From assembly GCF_035084215.1 (NCBI RefSeq), contig NW_027139442.1, forward strand, positions 5,208,001 through 5,272,000: a DNA stretch of 64,000 nt, read 5' to 3'. The position numbers and the translations under genes are program-made. The first letter of the stretch is position 1. Each line of letters opens with the position of its first letter. Of the stretch, positions 16,280 through 43,419 are shown one piece after another. The notes under the pieces are model-generated. The model made no database searches and was not told where the DNA came from. It saw only the letters and a program-made list of their open reading frames with translations. The stretch comes from Heptranchias perlo. Lineage: Eukaryota.

Positions 16280-18504
16280 TACGTGTTATGAACCGATGCA
16301 ATTTGTGAAAATGGACCAGCTTTTAGGCTTCGAAGATTCATTCTAGGGCGTAGGTCAGGAAAGGTGTGGCCGAATTTAAGTATCCTCGCCTGGCGGAAAT
16401 AGGGTGGTCGAGGCTTGTAAATGGTGTCAGGTCGTTACCGCCCCTTTAACACTGGCGTTCCTGCCTCCACCATCGTGGGTCATGTCCTGAGAAGAGAGGC
16501 CAGAACAACACCCACCTGTTTCTCGTCAGGCCACGTGTAAAATGTAAATCAGAGTATTATGACGTACAGGGGAAACCATTTAATGTTGGTTAAAAATGGG
16601 GGGAGGATCCGCCCTTTCGATGGGCATTGAGTGGTCCAGAACACTGAGAAGTTTCTTTTTAACTTATATTTTGTGGGCCAAGGAGGGGCAGAAGAGCTTT
16701 CCCTTGGCCTGCTCGAGCCGTGTGAAATCTCCCGGCCCCTGATCGTCTCAGAAATGTATCAGGAGGTTTCCATATAGATGTATGTAGCCAGGTCCAGCCT
16801 CATGTCCCATTAAACTCCCTGCAGTGAGTAAACATTGCTGCACAACAGCTCAGAGAGGAAACGATCTCCGGAACTCCCCACTGGAGTTAGAAATTACATT
16901 AATATTTTACCAGTTAGTAACGGTCCGGGTGTTGGTCCATTATTATTCTGTTCTGGTCTGAACAAATGTCCGAATGAACAGGACGCTGTCTGACCCTGAC
17001 AGCTCACCTTCAGTCCATCCCACCGGGCAGTGTGTGTGATGGGAAATAATCATCAACCGAAATGGAGCATTTGATTTTATTCATTGCAGGATTAAACATT
17101 TAATATTGAAATCATATTATTTCCCGACTAATAACAGCAAACCATTTCATGTTGGAATCAAATCTTGTATTATTTATCAAAAAGCATTTGTTGGATAAAA
17201 TATAATTCCTGTCTGGTATTTCCAAATTTATTTGAAGTATTGGATTGATATCAGTTACTTCAGTGAACTCATTGGTGTCAATGGATAGTAAAATCAGGCG
17301 TAGTGAACAATGGGGGCCCGATCCGCTATCGCCGACTTACTCCACCGCCAAAGCGGAAAATCCACTCTCATTCAGCAGTTTACATAAATCTTATTCCAGC
17401 TGATTTGTAGAATCTCATGTGTTGGGCTTTGAATTGTGAAGCGGATTTTCTCCGCCAGTTTTACCGTCTCACAGAGACTCTCACCCTGAATCGGTGAAAA
17501 GGTTATGACCATGAACTGGGACTGGAGCCGAACACATCCCCAGTTACGGTGAGGCCCGGACACCCCATTCTCTCTGTTTTATCTCAGACAGTATTCCACA
17601 TTCAAAATCAGCACTCGAGAGAGAAAGCGAGACACACACTGTCAGTCTTACACTTCCTATCAGTATGTTCATATCACGGTTAATAGCAGTATCCAACCTT
17701 CATATACAGCACCGGTGAGTGAGAGAGAAAGGCAGACAGATACTGTGACAGAGCGAGCGGAGAGGCACCGTGCAACAGTATCAGTTCCAGACTGACTTGT
17801 AAAGTTGCGTTTTATCCAGAAACTCCCGTTGTAGAGACAGAAGATGCAGTCTTGTCTCTCACTGATATACCAGAGACGGACACACTATTAATCCCACACT
17901 CAGGGACAGTGCAGAGAGTGACAAAAACAATGTGGGCCGAATTTAACCCTCTCTTGCCTGTTGTACTACATTCGGTTTTGCAGATCAAGGCCGTTCGCTC
18001 TTACTCTCAGTGACCGAGAGTTTCACTCTGATTCTATTAATATGGGACTGCTGCTGTCAGATATTAATCCTACACGCTCCCAGCAAGTACACGGACTCCA
18101 ACTTTCCTCCCATTTTTCTCCAGGATTGGTTTGAGAAATCCTGCATCCAGTTTCGGAGTCACACCTTACGTAATGGGAGAAGGGGCCAAGAATGAACAGA
18201 ATCCATTGGTTCATTTCAAAAAGTCCCACTTTATCTATGAAAGATTATGGACCATCAAAAGATACCGAGAGAAACAGCAGGGATGGAAACATCTAGTTTC
18301 ATAGTGAGAGATTGTAAAGTCAGTCTGGATTTCGGCGTTAGTCACTGGTGGAATCCCATCTGTTTTCCATTCTGGTGCCTGTTCCTGCACTGCCTGTGGA
18401 CCCCATTCCCTCTGACCTTTCCCCCAGCCCCACTTCCTTTGCTCAGACTCTGAAAAATTCCAATTGGGGAAAGTTTCCATCGATTTTTGTATTGGGAATT
18501 CAAC

Positions 18505-18700
18505 CAGATATCCGCGCATGCGTGACTCAACCCCGCCCCCAGCGCTGGTTGTTGGTGAGCAGAAGAGCGCATGCGCGCTCCCCTCCCCCAGCTCGGCCTG
18601 TGGGCGCCATTCCCTCAGTGAGCGGAAGAAGATTGTTTAAAACAGCCGGGAATGGAGAGATCACGGCCCCCGGGGGAAGGGAGCAAAGAGCAGCCTCGTT
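18505..18700. promoter_or_regulatory. Element X CpG promoter core
   Basis: NRF1-type GCGCATGCG at 18514 and 18567, TGACTCA, GC box CCCCGCCCC, CGCCATT (YY1), CGGAAG (ETS). Confidence 0.65.
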
Positions 18701-20079
18701 ACAGCAGCTCATCGCTTCGGGACCGTGTCCGCAGATGGGCTCAGAGATCGGCATTGAGTCCGGGTGAAGGGCAGGGGGAGTCCGTGGGCTGTTTGTAAGA
18801 GGCGGAGTGGATCAGGAACTGGTCCCGGAACATGGAGTGAGAGGGGGAAGGGAGAGGTCATTCTCGGGCTGTGTGTGTACAGGGTGTGTCCAGGGGAAGG
18901 GAGACAGAATGGGAAGAACCTGCTCTTTAAAATCATTGCTGCTTTCTCTCCCCAGACCAGTAGGTAATGTTCCTGGTTTAGGTCCAGTCTCACCCTGTTA
19001 ATTGTTATTGTAAAGTGAAGAGTGGAACAGAGCAGGACAGTAAGGATGTGGGGAGTTAAACAAAGAGCATCTATTGAAGGCACCAGGTGAGAAGTGTGAA
19101 GGACACATTTTAAACCGCGGTCGTTTTGTTTCGGTTGAACGGTTAGTCCCATGGGAGAGGGGATTAGAAACCTGACCTGCACAAAGGACCCTGCCCCATC
19201 GCGTAGTCCCATTTATCGATCAGTTGTGTTGTGTCTGGATGTCACTAAATTGTTGTAAAACAGCCCACCACACGTGGTGTGCAGAAGCTGAGTGCTGCAG
19301 TACTGCAGTGGAGTCAGATACTGACACTGTTTGTATTGCTGGTTTTGTGGATAATCAAAATAATCATTAACAAAGATATTAATTCGAACACTTTTATATT
19401 TTCTACCTCACTGGTTCTTGAGTTACAAGAGATAAATTTCTTCCTGCAGGCAAATCCTTGATGGACCCAGAATCAGTGTTATGTTTCCTCCACTCGAGGC
19501 ACAAGGAACAGTGCAGCCAACTCCTTCTCCCACACAGTAAGTACATTATCACACACAGCGCACAGAGACACAGAGGCACAGACAGGTCATCAGTTCCACA
19601 GTCTCAGACAGTAGAAGCAGTCAATCCCACACTGATCCCAAGTTCCATTTTCAATCCAACATTCAAACAAAGCAGGTGAGGCAGACGCTGTTCCATTTCC
19701 CCCGAGCTGAGTCCCGCTGACAGGTAGATACAGAAATCCCAGTCCAATATCACACTATCAGATTGAAAGGCACTGTGTCAATCTCACAATAGGGCAACAT
19801 AAGCTACGAATTAAATACCAGATCGAAATCACACATGGTACTCGATTGAAAGGGACAGAATGAAACCCAATAATTTACCCTGAGATTCCAATTGAATAAT
19901 TGCCCAGAACTCACACACTCACGTGAGTTTAATACACTGTTCGAATGGATATTGCATGTATCATGTGATACAAATTGCATACGTGTCCAAAACTCATGTA
20001 CAGTATCAGATTGAGAAATGCTGTGAGAGTGTAACCTGAGAAACAAATTAGATATCAGTTTATAATACACTCATAGTAT

Positions 20080-23000
20080 GAGATTTATAGATACAGTATC
20101 AATTCTATTAGTACAGACTGAGCTACACATTATACACCATTTGAAAAGTGTCACGAAATCAATTTGAAAGATACATTATCATTCACAACAGTACTCACAG
20201 AGATACAGATTTAATAGTAGCTCAAAAAGCAGACAAATTATGTGATTAAAACCTACAGCGTCAAATCCTACAGAGGACCCATATATACCAGTTAATGAGA
20301 AATAAGATCTAAACATGAAGATATTAAAGGTACAATTTTGAACGCCATAATGCAATCTTAGAGAATAATTACATACAGATACAGAATGAATCTCACACTC
20401 AGGTACAGTACCAGAGACTGACAGATGCAGAAGGAATCCCAAACTCACATACAATACTAGAGACTGACAGACACAGAGTGAATCCTACACTCACATATGG
20501 TACCAGAGATGACAGATACAGAATGAATCCCACACTGACACACTGTTCCAGAGACTGAGAGATACAAAATGAATCACACATTAGTGCAGGCTGAGTAACA
20601 TTACTTACCAGTTAAAGAAGTATCAGATTGAAAGATACAGTATCAATTACATTATTGCAGACTGATCTGCACGTTATAAACCACTACAAAAAACTGATGC
20701 AAATTCACTCTGAAATATACAGTATTCCATTGATGCAGACTGAGCTGCACGTCATATATAAGTTCAAAAATGTCAACATATCAGTTTGGAAGATAAACTA
20801 ATGCACAATTGTGTTCACATCGATACAGATTTAATAGTAGTCCGAAAAGTGCCCACATTCTCTGATTATATTCTACAGCATTTCATTATCAACCAATTAA
20901 ACACTGGGGAAAATATGCACAAATTGAGGTATTAAAGATACAGTTTTGAACACCATACTGAAAACGGAGAGACTAATTACATACAGATAAAGAATGAATC
21001 ACATATTCAGATAGAGGGCCAGAGACTGACACACAGAATGAAACCAGCACTCACACAATATAACAGTGACTGACAAATACCGAATGAATCCTACATTCAC
21101 ACACAGTACAAGGGACTAACAAATATAGAATGAATCACACACTCCCACAATACCAGAGCCTGACAGATACAGAATGAATCTCATACTCACAGACAGTACT
21201 AGGGACTGACAGATACAGAATGAATCCCACACTCACACACAGTACTGGGGACTGACAGATACGGAATGAATCTCACAGTCACACACATTTATGCAGTCTG
21301 AGTTACACATTACATATCAGTCCAAAAATCTCATAGTGTCAGATTGAAAGATACAGTATCAATTCCATTAGTGCAGACTGATCTACACATTATAAACCAC
21401 TACAAAAAACTGATACCAATTCAGACTGAAATACACAGTATTCCTTTCATGCAGACTGACCTACACATTATATACAAGGTCAAAAAAGTCACCATATCAT
21501 TTTGGAAGATAAACTAATTCACAATACAGATTTAATAGAAGTCCAAAAAGGTCCACATTCTCTGATTATAACCAACAACATTACATTTTAAAATGTATCA
21601 TTATCAACCATTGAAACACTGGGAAAAATATTGATACATTGAGGTATTACAAATAGAGTTTTGAACAACATACTGTAAACGAAGATACAAATTACATATA
21701 GATAAAGAATGAATCTCACACTCAGATGGAGGGCCAGAGACTGACACACAGAGTGAAATCAGCACTCACACAACCTAACAGTGAATGACAGATACCGAAT
21801 GATTCCTGCACTCACACACTGTAGCACAGACTGAAAGAGACAAAATTTATATCACTCACATACAGTACCAGAAATTGATGGATGCAGAATGAATGACTCC
21901 CTCACATATAGCAGCTGAGACTGACGGGAACAGAATGAAACCCTCATTCGCACACAATACCAGAGACTGATAGATACAGAATGAATCCCACACCCACATA
22001 CAGATACAGAATGAATCCCACACCCACGTACAGTAACAGAGACTGATAGATACAGAATGAATCCCAATCCCACGTACATTACCAGAGACTGACAGATACA
22101 GAATGAATCCCACACTCATACACATTACCAGAGACTGACAGATACAGGATGATTCCCACACTCATACACAGTACCAGAGACTGACAGATACAGGATGATT
22201 CCCACACTCACACACAGTACCAGAGACTGACAGATACAGGGTGATTCCCACACTCACACACAGTACCAGAGACTGACAGATACAGGGTGATTCCCACACT
22301 CACACACAGTACCAGAGACTGATAGATACAGAATGAATCCCACACCCACATACAGATACAGAATGAATCCCACACCCACGTACAGTAACAGAGACTGACA
22401 GATACAGAATTAATCCCACACTCACACACAGTACCAGAGACTGACAGATGCAGAATGAATTCCACACTCATACACAGTACCAGAGACTGACAGATGCAGA
22501 ATGAATCCAACACTCACACACAGTACCAGAAACTGACAGATACAGAATAAATCCCACACTCATACACAGTACCAGAAACTGACAGGAACACAATGAATCC
22601 CACACTCACACACAGACATTATTGCAGATCTGAGCTACATATTACACACCAGTCCAATAATTTCACAATGAACATATTAAAAGGTACATTATCATTCACA
22701 ATATCGTTCAGAGATTAAGATGTAACAAAAGTCCAAAACTCACACACGTTGTTTGATTGAAGAAAATCGAAAAATATATCCATGGTTACAAATTAAATAC
22801 TTGACGAAAAACTGCTTATACTTTAAATTATCAAGGCTGCAGTTTGAAGTAAAATAGTGGGAACTGAAATAAGAATACAGAATGAATCCAGATTTGCACT
22901 TTGTCTCAGGGATTGAATTACAGAATGAATGCCACACTGAGATAAATTAGCATATAATGGCAGATACAGAATGAATCCCACACTCACAGACAGGACCAGA

Positions 23001-23357
23001 GACTGACAGTTACAGAGTTAATTCCACACTTACACACAGTACCTGAGACTGGCAGATACAGAATTAATCCCACTCTCAAATACAGTGCCAGAGACTGGCA
23101 GATACAGAATGATCCCAAGCTCATATGTAGTGACAGAGACTGAGAGATACAGAATGAATCCCACACCCACACTCAGGACCAGAGACTGACAGATACAGAA
23201 AGAATCTCACACTCACAGAGACTGACAGATACAAAATGAATCTCACACTCACACACAGTACCAGAGAATGACAGATGCAGAATGAATCCCACACTCACAG
23301 AGTATCAGAGATTGACAGATACAGATTAAATCCCGCTCTCATACAGAGTACTAGAGA
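20080..23357 (+). repeat. Composite satellite array (46-bp and ~82-bp units)
   Basis: 46-bp unit CAGTACCAGAGACTGACAGATACAGAATGAATCCCACACTCACACA interleaved with ~82-bp CAGACTGAAAGATACAGTATCAATTCCATTAGTGCAGACTGAGCTACACATT units. Confidence 0.9.
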
Positions 23358-23390
23358 CTGGCCTCTACTGGACGTAGGCGAGAACTGTAA
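23358..23390 (-). promoter_or_regulatory. CTCF-like site at satellite edge
   Basis: Minus strand TACAG-N13-CCAGTAGAGGCCAG. Confidence 0.5.
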
Positions 23391-23984
23391 AAGAGCGGAA
23401 CAAATTCACATTATCTGTCGTGGTGACAGTGACAGGACAATGTGCAATGTGAAAAAAAGTTTCAGTCTGCAATTTCTACTCTCATATTTTTGCACGTTTT
23501 CTTATTGGAAAATGAAGACAATTAATTCATAATAAAGTTTTTGTTTTACTCATTCGATAGTTGTGAATTTACCCCCTTATTTTTGCACTTACGTTGCACA
23601 GTATTTCTCTCTGATTTCTCAGGACACGATTTACATTGCTCCTCTACCCCATTTAGTCTCGTATTTCCCAAGCAGTATGTGGCCTCCTTATTCCCCCTAA
23701 CAAAATTAATCAGATCACAACTTTCTATATTTAAATTCAATGCACATTGACACGACCGTTCTGCAAGCTGATTTTGTCGCAGTCTTCCTCAGTATTGACT
23801 ATAGTCCCGAAATCAATTACAATAATTTAACACAGCATTACAACTAACGTATGGTCTAAAAAAAATGTGCTTGCATCTCATCTCCATTCCAAGTTTTTCC
23901 AAATCTCACTCGTGCAATATAATGTGAAGAATGAGTTCATATTCTGTCCCTCTCTCATCTGCAAACTTCAATGTCCCGGGGTTT

Positions 23985-24018
23985 GGGGACATCTACTGGC
24001 CGAACGCAGAATTGCAAC
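23985..24018 (-). promoter_or_regulatory. CTCF-like site upstream of H2B promoter
   Basis: Minus strand TGCAA-N12-CCAGTAGATGTCCCC. Confidence 0.55.
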
Positions 24019-24266
24019 AGTTCGGAACAAATTGCTGAAACCGGACAATGTGCAGTGTGATTGGTGGCAGGTATGAAATCCGATTGGTTTCTTCAGGTAT
24101 CCAATCAGAGAGTTACAGTGAATAATTATTGTTACATCATTCCCAGTGACCCAATCATGATCATTGCCTTCCCCATCCCTCATTAGCATAGGGCTGTGGG
24201 GCTGCCTATTTAAGCCGAACTTGGAGCGGATTTGGGTCATTTCTGTTTCTGAAATTGAGTTTGAAA

Positions 24267-24641
<375 letters not shown>

Positions 24642-24672
24642 AACTCCACAATGTACTGAAAAAAAAAACAAC

Positions 24673-24688
24673 GGCTCTTTTAAGAGCC
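24673..24688 (+). terminator. Histone 3' stem-loop
   Basis: GGCTCTTTTAAGAGCC ACCCA. Confidence 0.95.
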
Positions 24689-25541
24689 ACCCACAACCTC
24701 TCTGAAAGTGCTGCATTTCTTATATATTTTCTTAGTATCTTTTTAATACCGCGATATTGTTCCAATCCAATACTGATACTGTAACTACGCCATTGAAATT
24801 TCTGACACATGAACTGAACGCGAGTTTATGATCCGCTCCTTCCCATTCGCTTTGTTCTAAAAGCGTTATTATTCCGGCCACGAACACACCCTGAATGACC
24901 ACCTTAGCAGTGCTATTATCTCTTTGAATTCAGTCTCCGAAATGTTTACCAACTGATGTGAAAATCCCCATATTAACAGCAACCACACCCCTTGCAGTAA
25001 AACAGCGGAGTAGGGGCAGAATGAGAACTCCGTCCGGGTCCCTCTTTTCACAGAAGCACACCCGGCTCTGTGAGAAGGGACCAATCTATAACGTGTCACT
25101 TTTAGAAAGATTAAATTGAAATGTGTCCCTTCACGGAATGCTGTGAATGGGGATTTAGTCCAGTCCGATACTGTTTGAAAGCGATGATGGAATAAGCCAT
25201 AATTTAAAGCAGGTTTTAAAATAGCTCCAGCGATTGGTGACGTGTAGCGCTGAATAAGACAAGGTAAAAAGAACGGGTTTAAAATCTTGTGCTCGGGGCG
25301 ACATTGATCCAAATCCGGTCCTTTACAAGACTGAAATTGGCGGTTTTTTTGAAATTCATAAAATTCCTGGTCCAACCGTTGAAGCCGATAAATCCCGCCC
25401 TCTTCTGTTTCTCAGGTATCTGATTGGTTAATGAAATATGCAAATAAGGTGTATTAGAGAACAACCAATCAGATGATCTTTCAGTCTTTGAGAAGGGCAA
25501 ATACAGCCGTCATTCTTCATTCTTTGTGAAAGTGTTTGTGA

Positions 25542-25949
<408 letters not shown>

Positions 25950-25979
25950 AGCGACCAAGAATTAATCTGATAACACAAA

Positions 25980-25995
25980 GGCTCTTTTCAGAGCC
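25980..25995 (+). terminator. Histone 3' stem-loop
   Basis: GGCTCTTTTCAGAGCC ACCCA, then GAAAGGGCTG HDE-like. Confidence 0.95.
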
Positions 25996-26138
25996 ACCCA
26001 CTTTATCTATGAAAGGGCTGGTTACTGTATGAACGGAGTCAGAAATCAATTTAATAATAAACAATCTGTTTCACATCTGGATCAAACTGCCTCCCGTTAG
26101 TTCCAAACGAACGATGTCTTGTTAAATACAAACGATCT

Positions 26139-26173
26139 GTTGCAGTACTCGCTTCCGGACAGTAGATGTCGCC
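26139..26173 (+). promoter_or_regulatory. CTCF-like site downstream of H2A
   Basis: GTTGCAG-N13-ACAGTAGATGTCGCC (first C of core changed). Confidence 0.5.
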
Positions 26174-27244
26174 AACCTCCAATAGGTTGAAATATACAGA
26201 TTGTATGGAAAATGAGACAAATAATCAGTTCATTAAACTGGGCGGGTGGGCTAGAGAGATAACGGGTGTATTTGATCATCGGCAACAAGACGCACTCTAT
26301 TGTGTTCGAGCCATTATTTTAAGTGTTATTTGCAGTCTCATTCTCCCACAACACTTACTCGGTCTGACTTCCATTACCCAGAAGGTGACGGATGTGTTGA
26401 TCATTGTGTCAGCGATTGCTGAATCAGTGAATGAAATTTGTCTGTTACTAGATGTGAGTGAGAGATTTATTCTGTCCCTGTCAGTCTGACGAGTACCGCA
26501 GTGAATGTGACACTAAGTTTCACACTGCTTCCGATTCGAGCGCTGAAAGAAAACACTTTGGATCTATTATTGCGAGTTACAGTGAAACAGCCTCTGTCAC
26601 TACAGCTGGAGAGGGATAATAGACAAACTGCATTTGATCCGAGACTGATTCTTTAGAGATCAAAGTATTTCCAACAGAGCCAAGCTGACACTATATCGGA
26701 AATGAGAACTTGCATCTCTTGTGCTTTGGACGCTGCACGATCCTCTCCCTGTATATATGTCCGAGTTAGATTGACACTGGGGGTGCAGATACCTGATGTG
26801 AAAAAGTAGGATCGAATTCAGCCCTTTCCGTACCTATTTGCCAGTAATTTGACTGTCCAAATGTGTCACTGGATGTGATGATGGGACTCAGTCTGCGCAG
26901 TGAGTGGAATTCACCTCCCTCCAATCCTGGGTGTGATGTGTGGAAATTAAACTGTGTCGTTTTCAAATACCTGATGTCGGTTAGTCTGGAATTGTCACCC
27001 TTGTCTGTTTGTGTATATTTAACACTGCTACTGTACCTGCCCAGAACTTCACAGATCAGCTCCACTCCTAACTCTCTCCCGTGTTATAACGGGCTATGAT
27101 ATGGACAGTTTATAAATGCTAGTCGTGCGCAGCTTGACATCCGCTACCTCCATTCATGAATTTCCCGTTTAATTATTTTTTTTATCTGCACTGTACCACC
27201 ATTTCAACCCAGGAGATCACAGCTCTTTCCATCGCCGATTTGGT

Positions 27245-27260
27245 GGCTCTGAAAAGAGCC
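27245..27260 (-). terminator. Histone 3' stem-loop (H3)
   Basis: Minus GGCTCTTTTCAGAGCC, then GAAAGAGCTG HDE. Confidence 0.95.
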
Positions 27261-27293
27261 TTTGTTGCACTTGGTGCTGAAGCCGGGTCGGGT

Positions 27294-27773
<480 letters not shown>

Positions 27774-28560
27774 TTAAATGGTCCAAGGGAATCCGCCCCT
27801 GGCCTGTGATTGGATAAAGTCCCACACCCTGTCAGGGAGGGACAGCTCCGGGCCTGTGATTGGCGGCTTTGAACCGAGCTCTCACAGTCAGACCGAAACG
27901 GCGGGAGGTATTGGACCCCAATTGGCTGAGCTGAAATTAATCATCAATGTCAAAAAGCCCGCCAATTTCAGAGCATCAAATAACAGTTTCAAGAAAATTT
28001 CATTTCCCTCCAGCAATTTAAGAATCTCTCTCTTTATAATCTCCATTAATTCCCACTCGTCAGCTCAAATCTCAGGCTGTTTCACATTCCGGTTCATTCT
28101 CTGATCTGTCTGGAAACCGGTGGTAATAAAGTCCCGGTCATTGCTTTCCGTAACGGGACAAAGTCAGCTTCAATTTCAAAAATCCCGCCAGTTCCGGCCC
28201 GGTGAACCGGACCTCACATAGAAACTTCACATCGAACTGATAACTGAATGAGGGCAGGAAATAAACATCGAGCAGAGAGGACACAGGGGGAGAGGGAGTG
28301 AGGAGGGATTTTACTCTGAGCGGAGAAGGTAATGTCTGGGGAAAGACTCTGTATCACCGCCTGTTCATTTATACCGTGAAACCGGGAATTCCGCTCCTTC
28401 TCTCGGGATGGCCGAGAACCCCGGCCGTTGTTTCTGATCTCCCTGTACCGAGTGTTGGGGAATCTCCCCATACTAAATAAATATCGGAAACTGATTCCTC
28501 ACCCCGAGATCTTTCCTCTCCCCGTTCCCAGGTCAGTGCTCTCTCTGTGAGGCTGTGGGT

Positions 28561-28576
28561 GGCTCTTAGAAGAGCC
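28561..28576 (-). terminator. Histone 3' stem-loop (H4)
   Basis: Minus GGCTCTTCTAAGAGCC ACCCA. Confidence 0.95.
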
Positions 28577-28611
28577 TTTGTTTTGTGTTCGGTTTGAAAG
28601 GGTCGAGTTGT

Positions 28612-28932
<321 letters not shown>

Positions 28933-29089
28933 TCACTCAAATCGCCGTTGAATGAACAGCGAATTTATGCTGGTTCCATTTTTATGCAGCTTGTCCCGAC
29001 CTGACTGAAACTTCCACAGGATGAGCGAGGGAGGGGAGAAGACAGAGTGAGATATTAAACGGAGAGGGGAGGAGATAGAGTGAGATATT

Positions 29090-29307
29090 GGCAACGGGCA
29101 GTTGCAGGGGCAGTCTGTAAACACCATGTATTATTGTTCAATATGTATAAATGCGTAGGCTTCAAGGAGATCTTGAAACATTTGCCTGAGGAAGGAGAAA
29201 ATCTCCGAAAGCTTGTGAATTTAAAATAAAATTGCTGGACTATAACTTGGTGTTGTAAAATTGTTTACAATTGTCAACCCCAGTCCATCACCGGCATCTC
29301 CACATCA
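29090..29307 (+). mobile_element. Penelope-like element terminal (pseudo-LTR) fragment
   Basis: CCTGAGGAAGGAG...CTCCGAAAGCTTG...AAATAAA...TGGACTATAAC...CCAGTCC...GGCATCTCCACATCA; flanked by TGAGATATT at 29081-29089 and 29308-29316. Confidence 0.75.
29180..29220 (+). ncRNA. Minimal type I hammerhead ribozyme motif
   Basis: ATTTGC-CTGAGGA-A-GGAGA(AAA)TCTCC-GAAA-GC-TT^-GTGAAT; helix I ATTTGC/GTGAAT with two G:U pairs. Confidence 0.65.
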
Positions 29308-29916
29308 TGAGATATTAAACAGAGAGGGGAGGAGACAGTCAGAGTGACGCACAGACCCGAGAGCCGCCTCTGACCTTCAAGCTCCACCTCCAGCTTTCTC
29401 CACCCGCCGATTTCAAACCGTTTATCGATAATAGAACCGAAACACAGCGCTCCGCACAAACCCTTACAGACTCGGGCTTCATATTCAAGGATTCCCAGAA
29501 ACCCGGAGCTTTTAAATAATCCCCGTTACAATTAACAGTCAGTAATATTTTTGCCTAAATACAGTCCCTTCTATAACAAGTCAACCCGCTTCCTTCCATT
29601 TCAGACTCAGACCGGATTCTATCTCCCCACACATCCCCTCCCAGACGGGTTCAGCAGTTTACAAACACTTTATTCCAGTTGATTTGAAGAATCTCATGTG
29701 TTGGGGTTTGAATTGTGATAGCGGCGGATCTCCGCCAGTTTTACCCTCTCACGGACTCTCGCCCTGAATCTGTGAGAAAAAATAAACTGGGATTGTTGCG
29801 GAACACGCGCCGGTTACAGTGAGGCCCGGCCCGGACAGATCGGAAACTGCTTCCCCACCCCGAGATCTTTCCTCCCCCCAGTCCCAGGTTAGTGATCTCG
29901 CTGTGAGGCGGTGGGT

Positions 29917-29932
29917 GGCTCTTGGAAGAGCC
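29917..29932 (-). terminator. Orphan H4-type stem-loop
   Basis: Minus GGCTCTTCCAAGAGCC ACCCACCGCCTCACAG; flank matches H4 3' flanks at 28490-28576 and 48069-48120. Confidence 0.85.
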
Positions 29933-30111
29933 TTAATCTTGTGTTCTCTCTATTTTATTCCAGACAGTGGGGTTGGGGCGGGGGTGGCGAATGTCAGCGA
30001 GTCACCAGGACCCTGGGTTTATTTTCAATGATTTCCATCTGAAATCTGAGCCCGGCCCCGGGACAGGAATCATCTGATTCCGGGGTCAGCTCTTTTCTGA
30101 GAGACGTGGGT

Positions 30112-30127
30112 GGCTCTGAGAAGAGCC
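30112..30127 (-). terminator. Histone 3' stem-loop (H1)
   Basis: Minus GGCTCTTCTCAGAGCC ACCCA, then AAAAGAGCTG HDE. Confidence 0.95.
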
Positions 30128-30163
30128 GTTGGGTTCAGATGTTCACAAGTTGCACTTGATTTT

Positions 30164-30799
30164 TTACTTCTTTTTGCCCGCTGCTTTCTTGGGCTTTGCT
30201 GACTTCGGCTTGGGCTTGGCCCTCGCTTTTTCTACCTTCTTCGCCTTCACCGGCTTGGGGGTCTTGGGCTTCTTAGCCGCCGCTTTCTTCTTAATTGGTG
30301 ATTTCACCGCCTTTTTCGTGGTTGATTTCTTGGCAACAGGTTTCTTGACCGCTGATTTCTTGGCGGCCGGTTTCTTGGCCGTTAATTTCTTGACGGCTGT
30401 TTTTTTGGTCGCTGGTTTCTTTCCGGGAGATTTCTTGGTCACTTGTTTCTTCACCTTCTTTCCCACTTTTGCCTGAGTTTCCTTCTTAGCGACTCTGAAG
30501 GAGCCCGAGGCGCCCGTGCCCTTGATCTGCACCAGGGAGCCTTTTTCCACATTTCTCTTGATACTTAATTTAATCTGGGACCGCTGCTTCTCCACATCGA
30601 GGCCTTTGGCAGCCAGAACCTTCTTTATCGCGGCCAGGGATATCCCCTTGCGATCCTTGCAATCCGCCACAATCTTGAGGATCTGTTCGCCCAACGGGGG
30701 ACCGGTGGGTCGGGGAACCGCCTTCTTCTTATTCGGAGCATTGGTTCGAGCGGCGGCGACGGCAGGAGGAGCCGTTTCGGCGGCTGCAGTGTCTGTCAT
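30164..30799 (-). CDS. H1: Linker histone H1 (211 aa)
   Basis: [13 protein letters not shown]...globular [12 protein letters not shown]...[14 protein letters not shown]-rich tail; H1 AC box AAACACA at 30944-30950. Confidence 0.95.
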
Positions 30800-33700
30800 G
30801 TCCGGGACTCTGGAGAAAATCTCTCTGACAGTCAGAGCTGGGTCAGAAATGAAACGAGAGGCGGCGGCACAGAGCAACTTAAAGGCACAGAGCGGACGGG
30901 GCGGAGACATCCTGCTGTCAGCTCCCGGCCCCTCCAGCCTCTCTGTGTTTCTCTCTCCTCTTAAACTTCCCGATTCCAATTAAAAGCGGGCACTCCAGAG
31001 TCCCAGACTAGCCCCTTCCTATATCTCACACCGGAATGTTTGCTGTCGAAAAACTTTCACCGGAATTGAAAGCACCAGTTTCGATTTAAACCCGTTTCAT
31101 TGCTGCACTGATCGCGCTCTCTCACCCGATCGCTGACAGGATCTCCGTTTTTCGTCTGAAATCTTGAATTGAACTCAAACCTTACCTTAATTTTTCACTT
31201 CGGAGCTCGGCAGGGGAGGAGGGCGATCCTTTGAAAGGGATTTTTTTTAATTTTACTGAAAAGCGACCCGGAAATACGGCGATGTGACCGGCCACACAAA
31301 CACAGTGACATTAATCTACCCCGCCCGCCCCTTTAACACACTCTCTCTGACACAATGTTCACATCTTCACATTCACAGGACAAACTGGTCGCCAGATTGA
31401 CAATTCCCGGGACAGGCTTTCCTCCCCGCTCGGCCTGTGCTGCAGATTCTCGGGTGTTAGTTGTAGTTTCCCAGCTCAGTAACTGTTAAACACTCTGAGG
31501 CCGGCGCTCCTCACAGTGTCTGGTCCGCAGATTCAGTGGCAGGAGACAATCACAGCTGTTGGTGTGATAATTCACATCTGGTTTTAAAATATTATACTGT
31601 TCGTACACAGAAATATGTTTGGTTAAGACGATAATACAAATTATCCGCTCTGGGCTCTTCCAGTCTCTCTGTGTTTCTCTCTCCTCCTAAACTGACTGAC
31701 AGACAATAGTAACTGGTGTCCTATCCGTCCCATTCTCAACACCCAGAGACGGCTCGTTACAGAATAAATTCAACACTAACAGGCAGTCCAGTGTCAGGCC
31801 GTTCCAGGCTGTTTCTCCCCACCTTTCCTTACTGGACTGGAGACTGATAAATGCACCGTCAATCCGGCTCATACATAATAGAAGGGACAGTGACTATCTC
31901 ACCAACAGCACCGGAGGTCTGTTCACAAACACTGAATCAGTCTTTACCTTCCACCAGGGTGTCGATATTAAGCTCAGTAACAGTATTTCGCTTTCATTTA
32001 CAGCGCTGGAGAGAGAGAAAGACAGACCGACAGATAAACAGACAGACAGAGACACACACACAGACAATGTATCAGTCTCACACTTCCTATCAGTATGTCC
32101 GTTTCACGCTCAGTAACAGTATCCCACATTCATATGCTGTGCAAAAGAGAGAGAGAGAAACTGACCTGTAATGTCCAGCATTCACCCAGTAACAAATTGG
32201 AAAAAATATTCCATTCCAATTGATATTCCAAGGTGGAGTGACAGAAGATGCAGTCTCATCTCTCACTAAAATTATTTCAGAGACAGACACATTATTAATC
32301 CCATTCTCAGGGACAGTGTCACACATTTAACCCTCTCTTGCATGTTTCACCCTTTGTAATCTTGCAGCTCAGGCCCATTCAGTATTTCTCTCAGTGACCG
32401 AGAGTTTCATTCCGATTGAAATAATCTGGGACTGTTGCTGTCAGATGTTAATCCCACACGGTCGCAGCAAACATACGGACTCCCACTTTGCTCCGCTGTT
32501 TCTCCAGGATTGGTTTGAGAAATCGTCCCTCCAGTTTCGGAGTCACGCGTTGCTTTATCAGTCAGGGAGCCAACAATGAACAGAACCCATTGGCTCATTT
32601 CACAGCCGCCCATTTTATCTATGAAAGGCCGTTTACCATCAAAAGATACCGAGAGAAACAGCAGGGATGGAAACATCGAGTTTAATAGTGAGAGATTGTA
32701 AAGTCAGTCTGGATTCCAGCGTTAGGCACTGGTGGAATCCCATCTGTTTCCATTCTGGTGCCTGTTCCTGCACTGCCTGTGGACCCCATTCCCTCTGACC
32801 TTTCTGAGAGTGATAATATACATACTGTGTGTGAGAAGGAGTTGGCTGCACTGTTCCTTTGTCTCGGGGGGAGGAAACTTCACATTCATTCTGGATCCTT
32901 CTCGGATTTGCTCAGACTCTGAAAAATTCCAATTAGGGAAAGTTTCCATCGATTTTTGTATTGGGAATTAAACCAGATATCTGCGCATGCGTGACTCAGC
33001 CCCGCCCCCAGCGCTGATTGTTGGTGAGCAGAAGAGCGCATGCGCGCTCCCCTCCCCCAGCTCGGCCTGTGGGCGCCATTCCCTCAGTGAGCGGAAGAAG
33101 ATGGTTTAAAACAGCCGGGAATGGAGAGATCACGGCCCCCGGGGGAAGGGAGCAAAGAGCAGCCTCGTTACAGCAGCTCATCGCTTCGGGACCGTGTCCG
33201 CAGATGGGCTCAGAGATCGGCATTGAATCCGGGGGAAGGTCAGGGGAGTCCGGGGGCTGTTTGTAAGAGGCGGAGTGGATCAGGAACTGGTCCCGGAACA
33301 TGGAGTGAGAGGGGGAAGGGAGAGTTCATTCTCGGGCTGTGTGTGTACAGGGTGTGTCCAGGGGAAGGGAGAGAGAATGGGAAGAACCTGCTATTTAAAA
33401 TCATTGCTGCTTTCTCTCCCCAAACCAGTAGTGAATGGTCCTGGTTTAGTTCCAGTCTCACCCTGTTTATTGTTATTGGACAGTGAAGAGTGGAAACAGA
33501 GCCGGACAGTCAGGATGTGGGGAGTTATACAAAGAGCATCTATTGAAAGCACCAGGTGACAAGTGTGAAGGACACATTTCTAACAGCGGCTGTTTGCTTT
33601 CAGTTGAACGGTTAGTCCCATGGGAGAGGGGATTTGAAACCCGACCTGTACAAAGGTCCCTGCCCCATCCGGTAGTCCCACTCATGGATCAGTGCAGGGG

Positions 33701-34479
33701 TTGCATTTTGTCTGGATGTCACTAAATTGTTCTAAAACAGCCTAACACACCTGGTATGCTGAAGCTGAGTGCTGCAGTACTGCAGTCGAGTCAGACACTG
33801 ACACTGTATCACTGGTTTTCATTTGTCGAAGCACAAAATAATTATTAACAGAGGTTTTAAACTGATCACTTTTGTATTTTCTACCACACCTGTTATTGAG
33901 TAACAAGAGATAATTTTCTTTCTACAGGCAAATCCGAGAAGGATCCAGAATGAATGTGAAGTTTCCTCCCCCCGAGACAAAGGAACAGTGCAGCCAACTC
34001 CTTCTCACACACAGTATGTATATTATCACTCACAGAGACACAGACAGGTCATCAGTTCCACAGTCTCAGACAGCAGAAGTAGTCAGTCCCACACTGATCC
34101 CAAGTTCCAGAGACACATTTTCAATCCAACAGTCAAACAGAGCAGGTGAGGCAGACGCTGTTCCATTGCACCCGAACTCAGTCCCGCTGACAGGTAGATA
34201 CAAAAATCCCAGTCCAAAGTCACAAGATCAGATTGTCAATTTCCAAGAAGTGCAGCATTCGCCATGAATTAAAAACCCCGAGATTCCAATTGAATACCAG
34301 ACAAGAAGTCTCACACCCACACGTGAGTTTAATACATGCAGTATCCATTCGAATAGTGTACCATTCGAATACAAATTGCAAGTCCAAAAATCATGTACAA
34401 TATCAGATTGAGAAATGCTGTGACAGTGTAACCTGAGAAACAAATTAGATACCAGTTTATAATATACTCATAGCATGAG

Positions 34480-37400
34480 ATTTAAAGAGACAGTATCAAT
34501 TCCTTTACTACAGGCTGATCGACACAATATATAGCAATTCAAAAATGTCACCATTTCAGTTTGAAAGAAATATTATCATTCACAATAGTACTCACAGAGA
34601 TACTGATATGATACTAGTCCAAAAAACACAAATCTTCTGATTAAAACCTCCAGCATCAAATCCTAAAGTGTATCCATGTTTACCAATTAAATACTGGGAA
34701 AAACTGTTGAAACATTAAGATAGTAAAGCGACAGTATTGAACACCATAATGTAATCTGAGAGAATAATTATATACAGATACAGAATGAATCTCACACTCA
34801 GATACAGTACAGAGACACACAAACACAGAATGAATCCCACACTCACATACAGTACTAGAGTTTGCCAGACACAGAGTGAATCCAACACTCAAGTATGGTA
34901 CTAGAGATGTCAGATACAGAATGTATCCCACACTGAAATACAGTACCAAGGACTGACAGATAGCAAAACCATCCCACACTCTCATAAAGCACTGGAGAAT
35001 GAGAGATACAAAATAAATCCCAAACTCAAACACAGTACCTGAGATTGGCAGATACAGAATGAAGGCCACACTCACGTACAGTACCAGAGTCTGACAGAGT
35101 ACAGAATGAATCTCACACTCACACACAGCACCAGAGACTGACAGATACAGAATGAATCCCACACTCACACGCAGTACCTGAGTTTGGCAGATACAGAATA
35201 AATCCCACACTCACACACAGTACCAGAGACTGACAGATACAGAATGAATCCCACACTCACACACAGTACCTGAGATTGGCAGATACAGAATGAATCTCAC
35301 ACACAGCACCAGAGACTGACAGATACAGAATGAATCCCACACTCACACACAGTACCAGAGACTGAGAGATACAGAATGAATGCCACACTCACACGCAGTA
35401 CCTGAGATTGGCAGATACAGAATTAATCTCACACTCACACACAGTACCTGAGACTGACAGATACAGAATGAATCCCACACTCACACACAGTACCAGAGAC
35501 TGACAGATACAGTATGAATCTCACACCAACATACATTATGAGAAACTGCATATATGGAAATAATTCAACACCCACACACAGTACTAGAGAATGTATATAC
35601 AGAATGAATCCCACAGTCAAATAGAGTACCAGAGAGTGACAGTTACAGCATGAATCCCACACTCACAGTCAGTACCAGAGACTGAGAGATACAAAGTGAA
35701 TCTCACAGTCACCTACATTAGTGCAGGCTGAGTTACACATTACGTACCAGAGCAAAAATCTCACAGTCGCAGATCGAAAGATACCTCATCAATTCCATCA
35801 ATGCTGGCTTAGTGACACATTACATACCAGTCCAAAAATCTCATAGTGTCAGTTTTAAAGGTGCAGTATCAATTCTATTAGCGCAGACTGAGCTACATAT
35901 TAGATATATTGGTAAATACTCATGGAGTATTATACTGAAATAAACAGTATCAATACCATTGGTACAGACTGAACTACACATTACATACGAGTCCAAAAAA
36001 CACATAAATGATTCGACTGGAAAATAGAGTTTCAATTCTATTAGCACTGCCTGAGCTGTACATTACATACCAGACTGGAAATCCCATAAAATATTAGACT
36101 AAAAGATGTAGTATCGATTTCATGAGTGCAGACTGAGCCACACATTATATAGCAGTCCAAGAATCTCATACCTTATCAGACTCAAAGATACAATATCAAT
36201 TCCATTAGCACAGACTGAGCTACATGTTACACACCAGTCCAAAAATCTCATACAGTTTAGACTGAGATACAGAATTAATCCCATTATTGCAGACGAAACT
36301 AAACATTACATACCAGTCCAATAATTTCACAGGGAACAGATAGAAAGGTACATTATCATTCACAATAAAGTTCATAGATTAAGATGTAATACTACTCCAA
36401 AACTCACACACATAGTTTGATTAAAGAAAATTGAAAAGTGTATCCATATTAACAAATTAAATACTCGATGAAGAACTGTATATAATTTAAACTATTAAAT
36501 CTACAGTTTCAAAAACGATACTGTAAACTGAAATAAGGACACCGAATGAATCCAGACTTGCACATTGTCTCAGAGACTGAATTACAGAATGAATCCCACA
36601 CTGAGATGAAGTAGCAGAGAATGGCAGATACAGAATGAATCCCACACACACAGACAGCACTAGAGACTGACAGATACAGAATGAATCCATCACTTATATA
36701 TAATACCCCTGAGACTGAGAGATGCAGAATATTCCCCATGCTCACACTCAGTACCAGAGAATGACAGATATATTATGAAACCTACAATCACATACAGTAT
36801 CCGGAACAGAATGAATCTCACTCACGCACAGTACCAGGGACTGACAGATACAGAATGAATCTCTCACTCAAAAAGAACCAGAGACTGACGGATACAGAAT
36901 GAATGTCACAGTCACATTACTGCTGACTGAGTTACACTTTACAGACCAGTCCAAAGATCTCATAGTATCAGATTTAAAGATAAAGTATAAATTCCATTAG
37001 TGCAGACTGAGCTACATATTAGATATATTGGTAAATACTCAGTATTATACAGATATAAATATTATCAATACCATTGGTGCAGACTGAGCTACACATTACA
37101 TACGAGTCCAAAAATCACATCAATGATCAGACTGAAAGATATAGTTTAAATTCTTCTTGCACCGCCTGAACTAAACATTATATAACAGTCCAACAATCTC
37201 ATACAATGTTAGACTGAAAGGTACAGTATCGATTTCATTAGTGCAGACTGAGCCACACATTATATAGCAATCCAAGAATCTCATACCTTATCAGACTCAA
37301 AGATACAATATCAATTCCATTAGCACAGACTGAACTACATGTTACTCACCAGTCCAAAAACTTCACACAGTATAAGACTGCTAGATACAGTATCAATTCG

Positions 37401-38095
37401 TTTAGTGCAGGATGAGCTACATATTAGATATCGTGTCCAAAAATCACATGTCGTGTTAGACTCAGATACAGAATTAATCCCATTATTGCAGACTGAGCTA
37501 CTCATTACATACCAGTCCAATAATTTCACCGGGAACAGATTGAAAGGTACATTATCATTCAAAATACAGTTCAGAGATTAAGATATAATACTACTCCAAA
37601 ACTCTCACACATTGTTTGAATAAAGAAAATCGAAAAATGTATCCATATTAACAACGTAAATAATCGACGAAGAACTATATATAATTTAAAGCATTAAAGA
37701 TACAGTTTCAAATACGATACTGTAAACTGAAATAAGAACACAGAATGAATCCAGACTTGCACATTGTCTCAGAGACTGAATGACAGAATGAATCCCTCAC
37801 TGAGATAAAGTAGGAGAGAATGGCAGATACAGAATGAATCCCACACTCACATACAGCACCAGAAAATGACAGATACAGAATTAATCCCACACTCACATAA
37901 AGTACCAGAGACTGAAAGATACAGAATGAATCCATCACTTATATATAGTACCTGAGACTGAAAGATGCAGAACATACCCCATGCTCACACTCAGTACCAG
38001 AGATTTACAGATACTGAATGAATCCCAAACTCATGCACAGCACCAGAGACTGACAATGACAGAATCAACCCCACTCTCATGTACAGTGCTAGAGA
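34480..38095 (+). repeat. Composite 46/82-bp satellite array with ~1.2-kb higher-order duplication
   Basis: Same units as 20080-23357; ~35800-36950 recurs at ~36960-38090. Confidence 0.88.
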
Positions 38096-38128
38096 CTGAC
38101 ATCTACTGGCCGTAAGCGAGAACTGTAA
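38096..38128 (-). promoter_or_regulatory. CTCF-like site at satellite edge
   Basis: Minus TACAG-N13-CCAGTAGATGTCAG. Confidence 0.55.
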
Positions 38129-38717
38129 CGAGGGAACAAATTCACATTAACTGTCGTGGTTGCAGAAACAGGATAATGTGCAATGTGATGGAAGTTTCGG
38201 TCTGCAACTTTTACTCTCGTATTTTTGCACTCTTTGACGGTGAAAAATGAAGACAATTGATTCATAATAAAGTTTTTGTTTCACTCATTCGATAGTTGTG
38301 AATTTACCCCATTATATTTCACTTTACATTGCGAAGTATTTCTCGCTGATTTCTCAGGATGATTTACATTGCACCTCTACCCCATTTAGACTCTTATTTT
38401 TCATGCAGTATGTGGCCTCCTTATTCCCCCAGCGAAATGCACCACCTCACACTTTTCTATATTGAAATTCAATGGCCATTTACACGGCCGTTCTGCAAGT
38501 TTATTTTGTCCCAGTCTTCCTCAATATTGACTATACGCCCTAAATCGATTACAAGAATTTAACACAGCATTACAAGTAGTTTTTGGTCCAAAAAAAATGT
38601 ACTTGCAGCTCGTCTCCATTGCCAGTTTTTTCTAAATGCCACTCGTGCAATATAATGTGAAGAATGAGTTTATCTTCTGTCCCTCTCTCATCTGCAAACT
38701 TCAATGTCCCGGGGTTT

Positions 38718-38751
38718 GGGGACATCTACTGGCCGAAAGCAGAACTGCAAC
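38718..38751 (-). promoter_or_regulatory. CTCF-like site
   Basis: Minus TGCAG-N12-CCAGTAGATGTCCCC. Confidence 0.6.
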
Positions 38752-38854
38752 AGTTCGGAACAAATTGCTGAAACCGGACAATGTGCAGTGTGAGCGTGTT
38801 TGTGATTGGTGGCAGGTACTAAATCTGATTTTTTAAACCTGCCCATTAACCTTT

Positions 38855-41800: not shown

Positions 41801-42030
41801 GGAACAAATTCACATCATCTGTCGTTGATACAGATTCAGGACAATGTGCAATCGGAGGAAATAGTTTCTCTCTGTAACTTCTGCTCTCGTATTTTTTCAT
41901 ATTTTGTCAGTGAAAATGAAGACAATTGATTCATAATAAAGTTCTTGTTTTGCTTATTCGAAAGTTGCCCCATTATATTTCACTCCACATTGCTCAATAT
42001 TTCTGTCTGATTTCTCAGGACACGATTTAT
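38855..42030 (+). repeat. Fourth, promoter-less partial module copy dominated by ~82-bp satellite units
   Basis: Begins at the equivalent of ~19000; 82-bp units at ~39870-41280; CTCF-like site at 41762-41795. Confidence 0.8.
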
Positions 42031-42129
42031 ATTAATTCAAATAAACCGAACTGAAACACAAATAAAAACTGAGCGCAAATCTGGAACTTCCAATGACCGT
42101 CAAAAGTGAAAGGGATAAAACATAGAAAA

Positions 42130-42230
42130 AATTAAAACCGAAAATGCTGGAAAGACTCAGCAGGTCCGGCAGCATCTGTGGAGAAGGGAAGCTCGGGTTA
42201 ACGGTTCAGGTCAATGACCCTTCTATAGAT
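42130..42230 (-). mobile_element. Decayed Penelope-like terminal fragment
   Basis: Minus GAAGGGTCATTGACCTGAACCGTTAAC...CCACAGATGCTGCCGGACCTGCTGAGT...CCAGCATTT. Confidence 0.55.
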
Positions 42231-42516: not shown

Positions 42517-42585
42517 AGCGTGCTGGGATTCAAACCTGTTTGGAATTAACTGTTTGGAAGGCAGCTATACTCACCATTATAGCGC
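42517..42585 (-). pseudogene. tRNA-Gly(TCC) relic
   Basis: Minus TATAATGGTGAGTATAGCTGCCTTCCAAACAGTT...GGTTTGAATCCC; acceptor stem lost. Confidence 0.6.
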
Positions 42586-43395: not shown

Positions 43396-43419
43396 TTAAT
43401 AGTTTGACAGAAGGTTTGA

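What the first reader, a model, noticed from the sequence alone, without database searches (positions are those of the whole stretch)
17620..26200. Recurrent module: housekeeping-type promoter, exon-like segments, satellite, CTCF pair, H2B-H2A (candidate satellite-lncRNA unit coupled to histone genes)
Seen: four copies of a CpG promoter core (NRF1 x2, GC box, ETS, YY1; ~60-190, 18505-18700, 32980-33170, 59440-59625). Where visible, it is followed at fixed spacing by a segment bounded by splice-like signals (TTCCTGCAG| at 19449, CAG|GTGAG at 19676; also 33927/34146, partly in other copies), then 2-3.5 kb of strand-asymmetric satellite, two CTCF-like sites and the H2B promoter. No credible protein ORF or TE hallmark (TIR, LTR, poly-A) was seen. 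Inference: a non-coding transcription unit reading into the satellite, amplified with the histone genes and possibly affecting histone-locus chromatin or producing small RNAs. Best candidate for an undescribed system here, but function is untested.
Basis: partly seen in the sequence, partly recalled or inferred. Interest (0 to 1): 0.7.

Follow-up and report, generated by a model that had tools for sequence, protein, structure and literature searches.

The report
Spliced RNA gene inside histone repeat
Hundreds of copies of a small spliced gene that likely encodes no protein sit in front of the H2B gene in the repeated histone-gene block of a fish genome (likely a shark's), and its promoter likely helps keep that repeat-rich block open while predicted insulator sites shield the histone promoter.

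Summary
The module is real. Four promoter cores lie in the window, and the genome holds 844 matches to exon 1 and 1,099 to exon 2. Public contigs (RNA status guessed) peak on exon 1 (about 18630-18763) and exon 2, with GT-AG joints. Exon 2 is 19450-19536, not 19450-19675. An exon 2-to-exon 2 joint implies that satellite and CTCF pair are likely intronic. In 1.12 Mb mapped, 26 of 27 H2B genes have the unit upstream. It is not confined to histone clusters: 116 promoter-deleted copies exist (3 of 3 mapped sit among zinc-finger genes), and five copies run into a zinc-finger exon, apparently by later fusion. Coding is unlikely (exon 2 out of frame in 26 of 55 copies). Exon 1 and promoter vary 2-7 times less than introns, exon 2 does not, and part of that contrast persists without the promoter. 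Here H2B (stop) and H2A (frameshift) are broken. Best reading: a housekeeping-type non-coding gene built into the histone repeat, acting likely through its promoter rather than its RNA. The 3' end and any function are untested. The scan already noted this element on other DNA of this genome.

The parts
17830..18250 (+). Upstream spacer shared by copies; starts with degenerate 46-bp satellite monomers
   Evidence: 76-83% identity to other copies; local alignment to the satellite z=10.6, 0 of 200 shuffles
18251..18500 (.). Conserved upstream block, role unknown; antisense ORF not conserved
   Evidence: diversity 0.086 vs 0.232 further upstream; ORF length 11-127 aa across 56 copies
18501..18635 (+). 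CpG-rich promoter core: NRF1-type 18514-18523 and 18567-18576, GC box 18531-18540, YY1-type 18604-18611, ETS-type 18623-18628, YY1-type 18629-18635 (changed in this copy); names recalled
   Evidence: CpG observed/expected 0.77, GC 0.62 over 18500-18830
18630..18763 (+). Exon 1 (start approximate; donor GT at 18764 in this copy, one or six bases further on in most copies)
   Evidence: contig depth rises from 60 to 59,445 and a joint 18763 to 19450 reads GT..AG; diversity 0.022; donor types
19020..19086 (+). Optional exon A (start approximate)
   Evidence: joints from exon 1 to 19026 and from 19083(+3) to 19447(+3), GT..AG; donor CAG|GTGAGA
19450..19536 (+). Exon 2, 87 nt here (86, 91 and other lengths in other copies)
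19540..19900 (+).
   Evidence: alignment to 46-mer z=4.4-5.1 and to 82-mer z=15.5
20037..23359 (+). Strand-asymmetric satellite, alternating 46-bp and 82-bp arrays; likely intronic where a second sub-unit follows
   Evidence: exon 2 to exon 2 joint
23360..23388 (-). CTCF-like site 1 (two-part, weaker), pointing towards the satellite
23531..23536 (+). Predicted polyadenylation signal AATAAA with GT-rich tail; candidate 3' end, untested
   Evidence: kept in 41 of 56 aligned copies
23607..23675 (+). Predicted acceptor (AG at 23621-23622) and possible small exon; untested
23988..24016 (-). CTCF-like site 2 (core plus upstream motif), pointing away from H2B
   Evidence: diversity 0.046 in 23990-24039
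24060..24266 (+). H2B promoter (CCAAT-type boxes, TATA-like at 24206)
24267..24713 (+). H2B pseudogene (in-frame TAA at 24510, 81 aa) with stem-loop 24668-24713
25552..26020 (+). H2A pseudogene (8-base insertion near the start, 61 aa) with stem-loop 25975-26020
26141..26170 (+). Third CTCF-like site, behind H2A, pointing away from the H2B-H2A pair
27219..30797 (-). H3, H4 and H1 that complete the repeat unit
32234..46066 (+). Second unit: promoter, exons, satellite, CTCF pair, a second exon-satellite-CTCF sub-unit, H2B (broken) and H2A
51744..60618 (-). Third unit, inverted, with intact H2B and H2A frames
1..1082 (-). Fourth unit; continues off the window through two exon 2 sub-units to an H2B
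49375..50895 (-). Promoter-less fragment: exon 2 plus satellite behind H2A

Best explanation
The module is a spliced, likely non-coding gene that forms a regular part of this genome's histone repeat, and it likely works through its CpG-rich promoter, which would keep the repeat open, rather than through its RNA. Shown: the anatomy (promoter, exon 1, optional exon A, exon 2, satellite, CTCF-like pair, then H2B-H2A-H3-H4-H1), the copy numbers, the exon joints in public contigs, and broken frames in exon 2. Inferred: the promoter is active and unmethylated in the germ line; the transcript runs through satellite and CTCF sites as intron where sub-units are chained; the CTCF sites shield the H2B promoter from the upstream promoter and satellite; H2B is normally made from its own start; the unit entered one ancestral histone repeat and spread by unequal recombination, which also made broken copies (this one), promoter-deleted copies and fusions to zinc-finger exons.
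For: Splicing: joints 18763 to 19450 (GT..AG, run X6), exon A to exon 2 (GT..AG, X4), exon 2 to exon 2 (X1); 0 genomic matches to exon 1-exon 2 or exon 2-exon 2 junction patterns. The exon 2-exon 2 joint lands two bases before the usual acceptor, which fits a shifted acceptor seen in 7 of 46 aligned exon 2 copies, all 7 in second or later sub-units. Coupling: 26 of 27 H2B genes have a same-strand exon 2 as nearest upstream part; 26 of 45 exon 1 copies lead to H2B; the same order holds on C2, C3, C49, C284, C402, C1275, C1456. Non-coding: 26 of 55 exon 2 copies are not a multiple of three; exon 1 frame has 7 synonymous and 19 non-synonymous codon variants; no Pfam match for 5 module frames; no protein relative. 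Promoter constraint: motif columns 0.047 vs other promoter columns 0.093 (p=0.015, columns not independent); CpG columns 0.009 in exon 1 vs 0.22-0.38 in introns. RNA body unconstrained: exon 2 diversity 0.166 vs introns 0.157-0.164; no folding beyond shuffles for 7 of 7 pieces. Three lone H2B copies (C10, C35, C43) begin about 25 bases before the ATG with no module exon. PMC12885311 (passages) reports that two-part CTCF sites typify insulators and work best facing the enhancer; the sites here face the module.
Against: No test of function, methylation, CTCF binding or 3' end. The low diversity of the core also appears, more weakly, in 23 promoter-deleted copies (22 of 526 vs 116 of 1,278 variable columns, p=0.0003), so mutation rate or gene conversion explains part of it. 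Tight coupling to H2B is expected from common descent alone. Exon 1 itself is more conserved than the promoter, which could point to the RNA. The focal H2B and H2A are broken although the promoter is nearly intact. The runs are only guessed to be RNA, are contigs (no strand, start or level), and come from paralogues, possibly of other species; one joint in them (18446 to 18642) matches a genomic deletion. The mapped DNA was chosen around module hits.
Confidence: 0.45

Rival explanations
1. Passenger without a job: an ordinary CpG promoter with cryptic exons was caught in the ancestral histone repeat and is copied with it; its uniformity comes from low mutation in unmethylated DNA and from gene conversion.
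For: Core stays 2-3 times less variable in promoter-deleted copies; exon 2 drifts like intron; exon 2 is flanked by old satellite monomers; 116 promoter-deleted copies were amplified elsewhere; many broken histone genes (17 of 23 H2B and 14 of 29 H2A frames intact).
Against: Motif columns vary less than neighbouring promoter columns; the exon 2 donor GT is kept in most copies, and 0 of 37 examined copies lacking it (of 112) carry the NRF1-type motif nearby, though these may descend from one event and keep a second GT four bases on.
Confidence: 0.3
2. The RNA is the working part: nascent transcripts with exon 1 and satellite introns would scaffold histone locus bodies or feed small RNAs against the satellite.
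For: Exon 1 is the most conserved stretch (0.022); exon 2 can be chained, as repeated exons are in Firre (PMC4820808, abstract and outline seen).
Against: No stable fold, no Rfam family, exon 2 unconstrained, contig depth at the start of the satellite low (122 vs 59,445 in X1).
Confidence: 0.15
3. It is the 5' half of a C2H2 zinc-finger gene, or encodes a short peptide, and the histone-linked copies are remnants.
For: 6 of 45 exon 1 copies lead on the same strand to a zinc-finger acceptor; one frame of exon 2 has no stop in 50 of 55 copies; copies also occur among zinc-finger and tRNA genes.
Against: The 5 directly joined copies are nested among histone-linked copies, need 4 changes on the tree and show two different junctions; their finger frames are short (15-224 aa, 0-8 fingers) against 336-532 aa (10-18 fingers) for 4 genes with their own promoter; exon 2 is often out of frame.
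Confidence: 0.07
4. A non-autonomous transposon or solo LTR that prefers histone loci.
For: High copy number; a few copies on C23, C40 and small contigs lie away from histone genes.
Against: Copies carry the same kilobases of spacer on both sides, with ragged upstream ends (17371, 17450, 17589, 17830); among the first 100 exact exon 1 matches, chromosome-sized contigs other than C2, C23 and C49 have none.
Confidence: 0.03

Closest known systems
Read-through transcription of satellite at newt (Notophthalmus) and Xenopus histone loci (as stated in PMC11602149, passages seen)
   Same: Histone genes interleaved with satellite, and transcription that crosses the satellite.
   Different: There it starts at histone promoters. 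Here a separate CpG promoter with its own spliced exons lies upstream of H2B and reads towards it.
Sea urchin alpha-histone repeat with the sns5 insulator (PMC2794192, abstract and outline seen)
   Same: A five-gene histone repeat with an insulator built into each unit to separate promoters.
   Different: sns5 buffers H1 from the H2A enhancer and no extra gene is described in the abstract; here the sites are CTCF-like, binding is untested, and they flank H2B-H2A.
Firre-type lncRNA with local repeats and CTCF sites (PMC4820808, abstract and outline seen)
   Same: Spliced non-coding RNA with repeated units and CTCF-type sites in introns.
   Different: Firre is one locus with tested RNA elements (single-locus status recalled); this gene has hundreds of copies tied to histone repeats and no tested element. 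No sequence relation was tested.
Two-part CTCF insulator sites, e.g. human IL3 (PMC12885311, passages seen)
   Same: Core plus upstream motif with a short linker, oriented towards the element to be blocked.
   Different: Sequence match only; amplified with a repeat.
Ubiquitous chromatin opening elements such as HNRPA2B1-CBX3 (search listing and abstract starts only)
   Same: CpG-rich housekeeping-type promoter beside genes at risk of silencing.
   Different: Activity untested here; about 330 bases of CpG-rich DNA; no divergent gene pair shown.

Membership tests
Replication-dependent histone gene repeat | Intronless H1, H2A, H2B, H3, H4 with 3' stem-loop, clustered | tested here: met
   10 Histone3 matches in the window. 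The focal H2B and H2A are pseudogenes.
Spliced long non-coding RNA gene | Transcribed and spliced at GT-AG sites | tested here: met
   Joints in 3 of 4 runs laid; none in the genome. RNA status of the runs is a guess; the focal copy itself is not shown to be the source.
Spliced long non-coding RNA gene | Longer than 200 nt | tested here: inconclusive
   Exon 1 (about 134) plus exon 2 (87) gives about 220 nt; start approximate, end unknown.
Spliced long non-coding RNA gene | No conserved reading frame | tested here: met
   a short peptide from some copies is not excluded.
Spliced long non-coding RNA gene | Defined cap and poly(A) end | not testable with these tools
   Contigs show no ends; no RNA data were obtained beyond 20050; AATAAA at 23531 is a prediction.
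Newt-type histone read-through satellite transcription | Starts at a histone promoter | tested here: not met
   Depth rises at 18557-18645, at a separate promoter 5.6 kb upstream of H2B.
Newt-type histone read-through satellite transcription | Transcript crosses satellite | tested here: inconclusive
   Implied by the exon 2 to exon 2 joint; back-splicing of one exon would give the same joint.
Two-part CTCF insulator | Core plus upstream motif with short linker | tested here: met
Two-part CTCF insulator | CTCF binding and blocking activity | not testable with these tools
   needs ChIP and a reporter
C2H2 zinc-finger gene 5' end | Leads to a finger exon in most copies and in the ancestor | tested here: not met
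   6 of 45 copies; nested in the tree; short frames
Transposable element | Discrete ends, dispersed independent insertions | tested here: not met
   ragged ends and shared flanks
Transposable element | Terminal repeats and target-site duplications | not tested
   no dedicated search was run
snoRNA or miRNA host gene | Conserved structured RNA in an intron | tested here: not met
   No Rfam hit at threshold; introns are the most variable part; satellite pieces do not fold beyond shuffles. Unknown small RNAs are not excluded.
Chromatin opening element | Unmethylated CpG island that protects a neighbour from silencing | not testable with these tools
   Only CpG retention is shown.

The most novel reading that the evidence does not exclude
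A vertebrate histone repeat carries, as a selected sixth member, its own housekeeping non-coding gene whose transcription through satellite and CTCF sites licenses or organises hundreds of histone loci; the same promoter cassette is recycled by recombination to drive new zinc-finger genes.
Probability: 0.25. Interest if true: 0.8.

Novelty: new variant of a known kind. Interest (0 to 1): 0.5.

Why it matters
Histone repeats are usually thought to hold histone genes, spacers and insulators. A spliced polymerase II gene in front of almost every H2B, in hundreds of copies, gives a natural series (intact, promoter-deleted, fused, next to broken histones) to ask how large histone arrays stay active among satellite DNA and whether spacer transcription matters. 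If it proves a passenger, it is still a clear case of a promoter cassette spreading with a multigene family and being swapped onto zinc-finger exons.

Tried and rejected
No RNA data were obtained for the part beyond 20050, so the 3' end and a possible splice into H2B or a finger exon stay open. Protein searches with the 121-aa exon 1 read-through frame (lengths 66-212) and a 45-aa exon 2 frame (lengths 80-2000) found nothing (weak evidence). Pfam: 0 families for 5 module frames. Rfam: only histone stem-loops and tRNAs. Folding: z between -0.74 and +1.15 for 7 pieces. A search for processed copies that would show the mature RNA found none: 37 of 112 exon 2 ends without GT were read and all continue into intron sequence. 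My early reading that the module is a captured zinc-finger 5' end was dropped. A spliced-leader reading was dropped because every exon 1 loose end and joint shown leads to exon A or exon 2 types (126 loose ends and 5 joints were not shown). The H1 rows are a script artefact (0 of 9 scored) and are not used. The tree has no true root and three C3 rows are distorted by insertions. No look-alike windows in other genomes; G000 has no relatives here. Ten paper searches gave no listing that describes this element; the library lacks most subscription papers, and bioRxiv supplements (e.g. of 10.1101/2025.06.08.657570) were not seen. PMC2114352 (abstract and a reference line) concerns a different newt satellite and was not used.
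Full report
Setting. The window lies at G000:C1275:5208001-5272000 in a 3.25-Gb genome. It holds histone genes, a C2H2 zinc-finger gene and tRNAs. That it is a shark is my inference from gene style and the wording of earlier scan notes; no call names the species. A preprint reports histone clusters mixed with tRNA genes in a stingray (10.1101/2025.06.08.657570, passages seen).

Observation. The four promoter cores, the acceptor at 19449, the donor-like signal at 19676, the satellite and the two CTCF-like sites are at the stated places and far above chance. The focal H2B has an in-frame stop at 24510 and the focal H2A an 8-base insertion near its start, so both are pseudogenes. Across the fetched DNA 17 of 23 H2B, 14 of 29 H2A, 10 of 11 H3 and 10 of 10 H4 frames were intact.

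Transcription and splicing. Nine runs hold part of 18200-19800, none on record as RNA. I laid 4 of them (3 samples, 3 studies) on 17400-20050. Summed contig depth, a poor measure of level, rises in X1 from 60 (18468-18556) to 59,445 (18646-18734), falls to 0 (19358-19446), peaks at 40,903 (19447-19535) and is 122 at 19981-20050; X4 and X6 show the same shape, X5 is shallow. Joints link exon 1 to 19450 (GT..AG, X6), exon 1 to an optional exon near 19026, that exon to 19450 (GT..AG, X4), and the end of exon 2 back to the start of exon 2 (X1). Exact junction patterns have 0 matches in the genome, so these joints are best read as splicing. One other joint (18446 to 18642) matches a genomic deletion, a warning that contig joints can be DNA variants. 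Direction is inferred from GT-AG polarity. Exon 2 ends at 19536, not 19675. The exon 2-exon 2 joint enters two bases before the usual acceptor; 7 of 46 aligned exon 2 copies have exactly such a shifted acceptor and all 7 are second or later sub-units. The simplest reading is linear splicing across satellite and both CTCF sites; back-splicing is not excluded. No RNA data were obtained downstream, so the 3' end is open. An AATAAA at 23531 is kept in 41 of 56 copies and an acceptor at 23622 is well kept; both are predictions.

Genome-wide. Short patterns give 844 matches for exon 1, 1,099 for exon 2 and 462 for this H2B type (up to 2 mismatches); some contigs may be duplicates, as C1499 matches the focal promoter at 100%. 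In 20 stretches (1,124,000 bases, chosen around module hits) the order is H1, promoter, exon 1, exon A, exon 2, satellite, CTCF pair, optionally further exon-satellite-CTCF sub-units, then H2B, H2A, H3, H4. Of 45 exon 1 copies, 26 lead to a same-strand H2B, 2 meet an opposite H2A (with H2B fragments between), 6 lead to a same-strand finger acceptor, 3 to an opposite one, and 8 are unresolved; 26 of 27 H2B genes have exon 2 as nearest upstream part. C284 and C402 show the same unit. Three lone H2B copies on C10, C35 and C43 start just before the ATG without module exons, as retrocopies of normally started mRNA would (retrocopy status inferred).

Not confined to histone loci. 116 copies lack the whole promoter core; the 3 mapped over 20 kb lie among zinc-finger genes without histone genes. 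A second, smaller deletion removes both NRF1-type sites in 9 copies seen on six other contigs. Five copies run straight from satellite or intron into a finger gene's intron by two kinds of junction; a sixth on C23 has a LINE-like insert and another CpG stretch in between. The five are nested among histone-linked copies and their finger frames are short, so they look like later fusions.

Coding. Exon 2 lengths are 87 (27), 86 (16), 91 (7) and others (5); 26 of 55 are not multiples of three, although one frame has no stop in 50 of 55. The exon 1 donor sits at three positions, 12 of 56 copies lack one base in exon 1, and codon variants are 7 synonymous to 19 non-synonymous, near what neutral change gives (recalled ratio about 1:3). 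No protein relatives or families were found.

Conservation. Among 56 copies diversity is 0.022 in exon 1, 0.075 in the promoter, 0.077-0.086 in the blocks on either side, 0.157-0.166 in intron 1, exon 2 and intron 2, and 0.232 upstream (insertions inflate the flanks somewhat, and a BLAST profile gave the same pattern). Motif columns vary half as much as other promoter columns, and CpGs in exon 1 hardly vary, which fits an unmethylated, constrained promoter. Against a pure selection reading, 23 promoter-deleted copies also vary less in the same core (22 of 526 vs 116 of 1,278 columns). Exon 2 is flanked by degenerate satellite monomers and drifts like intron.

Mechanism. I commit, at 0.45, to a housekeeping-type non-coding gene fixed in the histone repeat that acts through its promoter and transcription, with outward-facing two-part CTCF-like sites shielding H2B-H2A; orientation agrees with what PMC12885311 reports for insulators (passages). 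A functionless passenger is the main rival (0.3), then a working RNA (0.15), a zinc-finger remnant or peptide (0.07) and a transposon (0.03). Every step beyond anatomy, copy number and splicing is inferred.

Known systems and novelty. It works partly like newt histone read-through (PMC11602149, passages) but fails the defining start at a histone promoter; it shares built-in insulation with the sea urchin repeat (PMC2794192, abstract) and repeat-rich anatomy with Firre (PMC4820808, abstract). Ten searches listed no paper on this element. Earlier unreviewed scan notes describe the same unit elsewhere in this genome; they are not independent support. Verdict: real, new variant of a known kind, interest 0.5.

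Noticed in passing
window 32804-32911 (also L028): An inverted copy of exon 2 (about 108 bases) is inserted in the conserved block upstream of the second promoter.
   Followed up: partly
window 7380-12101: C2H2 zinc-finger gene (364 aa, 13 fingers) with its own promoter and 45-, 39- and 62-bp repeats in its intron; related cassettes recur on C1456, C3 and C49.
   Followed up: partly
window 14600-14960: A second CpG-rich promoter-like stretch with an NRF1-type palindrome, beside 22- and 36-bp repeats; relatives lie behind several finger genes. A stretch like exon A lies at 15418-15532 on the minus strand.
   Followed up: no
window 42033-43561: A 1.5-kb insertion between the CTCF sites marks second sub-units; at least 40 genomic matches at 87-100%. 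It puts AATAAA just behind the predicted acceptor.
   Followed up: partly
window 44204-44569: H2B of the second unit has a stop at codon 3.
   Followed up: yes
G000:C49:20732290-20777155: The satellite of one unit has grown to about 45 kb between exon 2 and the CTCF region.
   Followed up: no
G000:C10:71486087, C35:12130686, C43:10107613 (L132, L135, L138): Lone H2B copies without promoter or module, likely retrocopies.
   Followed up: yes
L172, L201-L207 and G000:C360:289796: A second promoter deletion that removes both NRF1-type sites, on C360, C1317, C1349, C1370, C1403 and C1477; wider surroundings not mapped except on C360.
   Followed up: partly
window 3390-3461 and 63778-63849: tRNA matches beside diverged H2A copies; the tRNA-H2A block recurs upstream of several module copies, also on C23 and C49.
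   Followed up: no
window 1193-2350 and 5500-7090: Decayed frames that look like LINE and hAT-type transposon remnants (labels recalled; no Pfam match for the two frames tested).
   Followed up: no
G000:C1499:2985077-2985357: 100% match to the focal promoter; C1499 may be a second haplotype or a very recent duplicate of this region.
   Followed up: no
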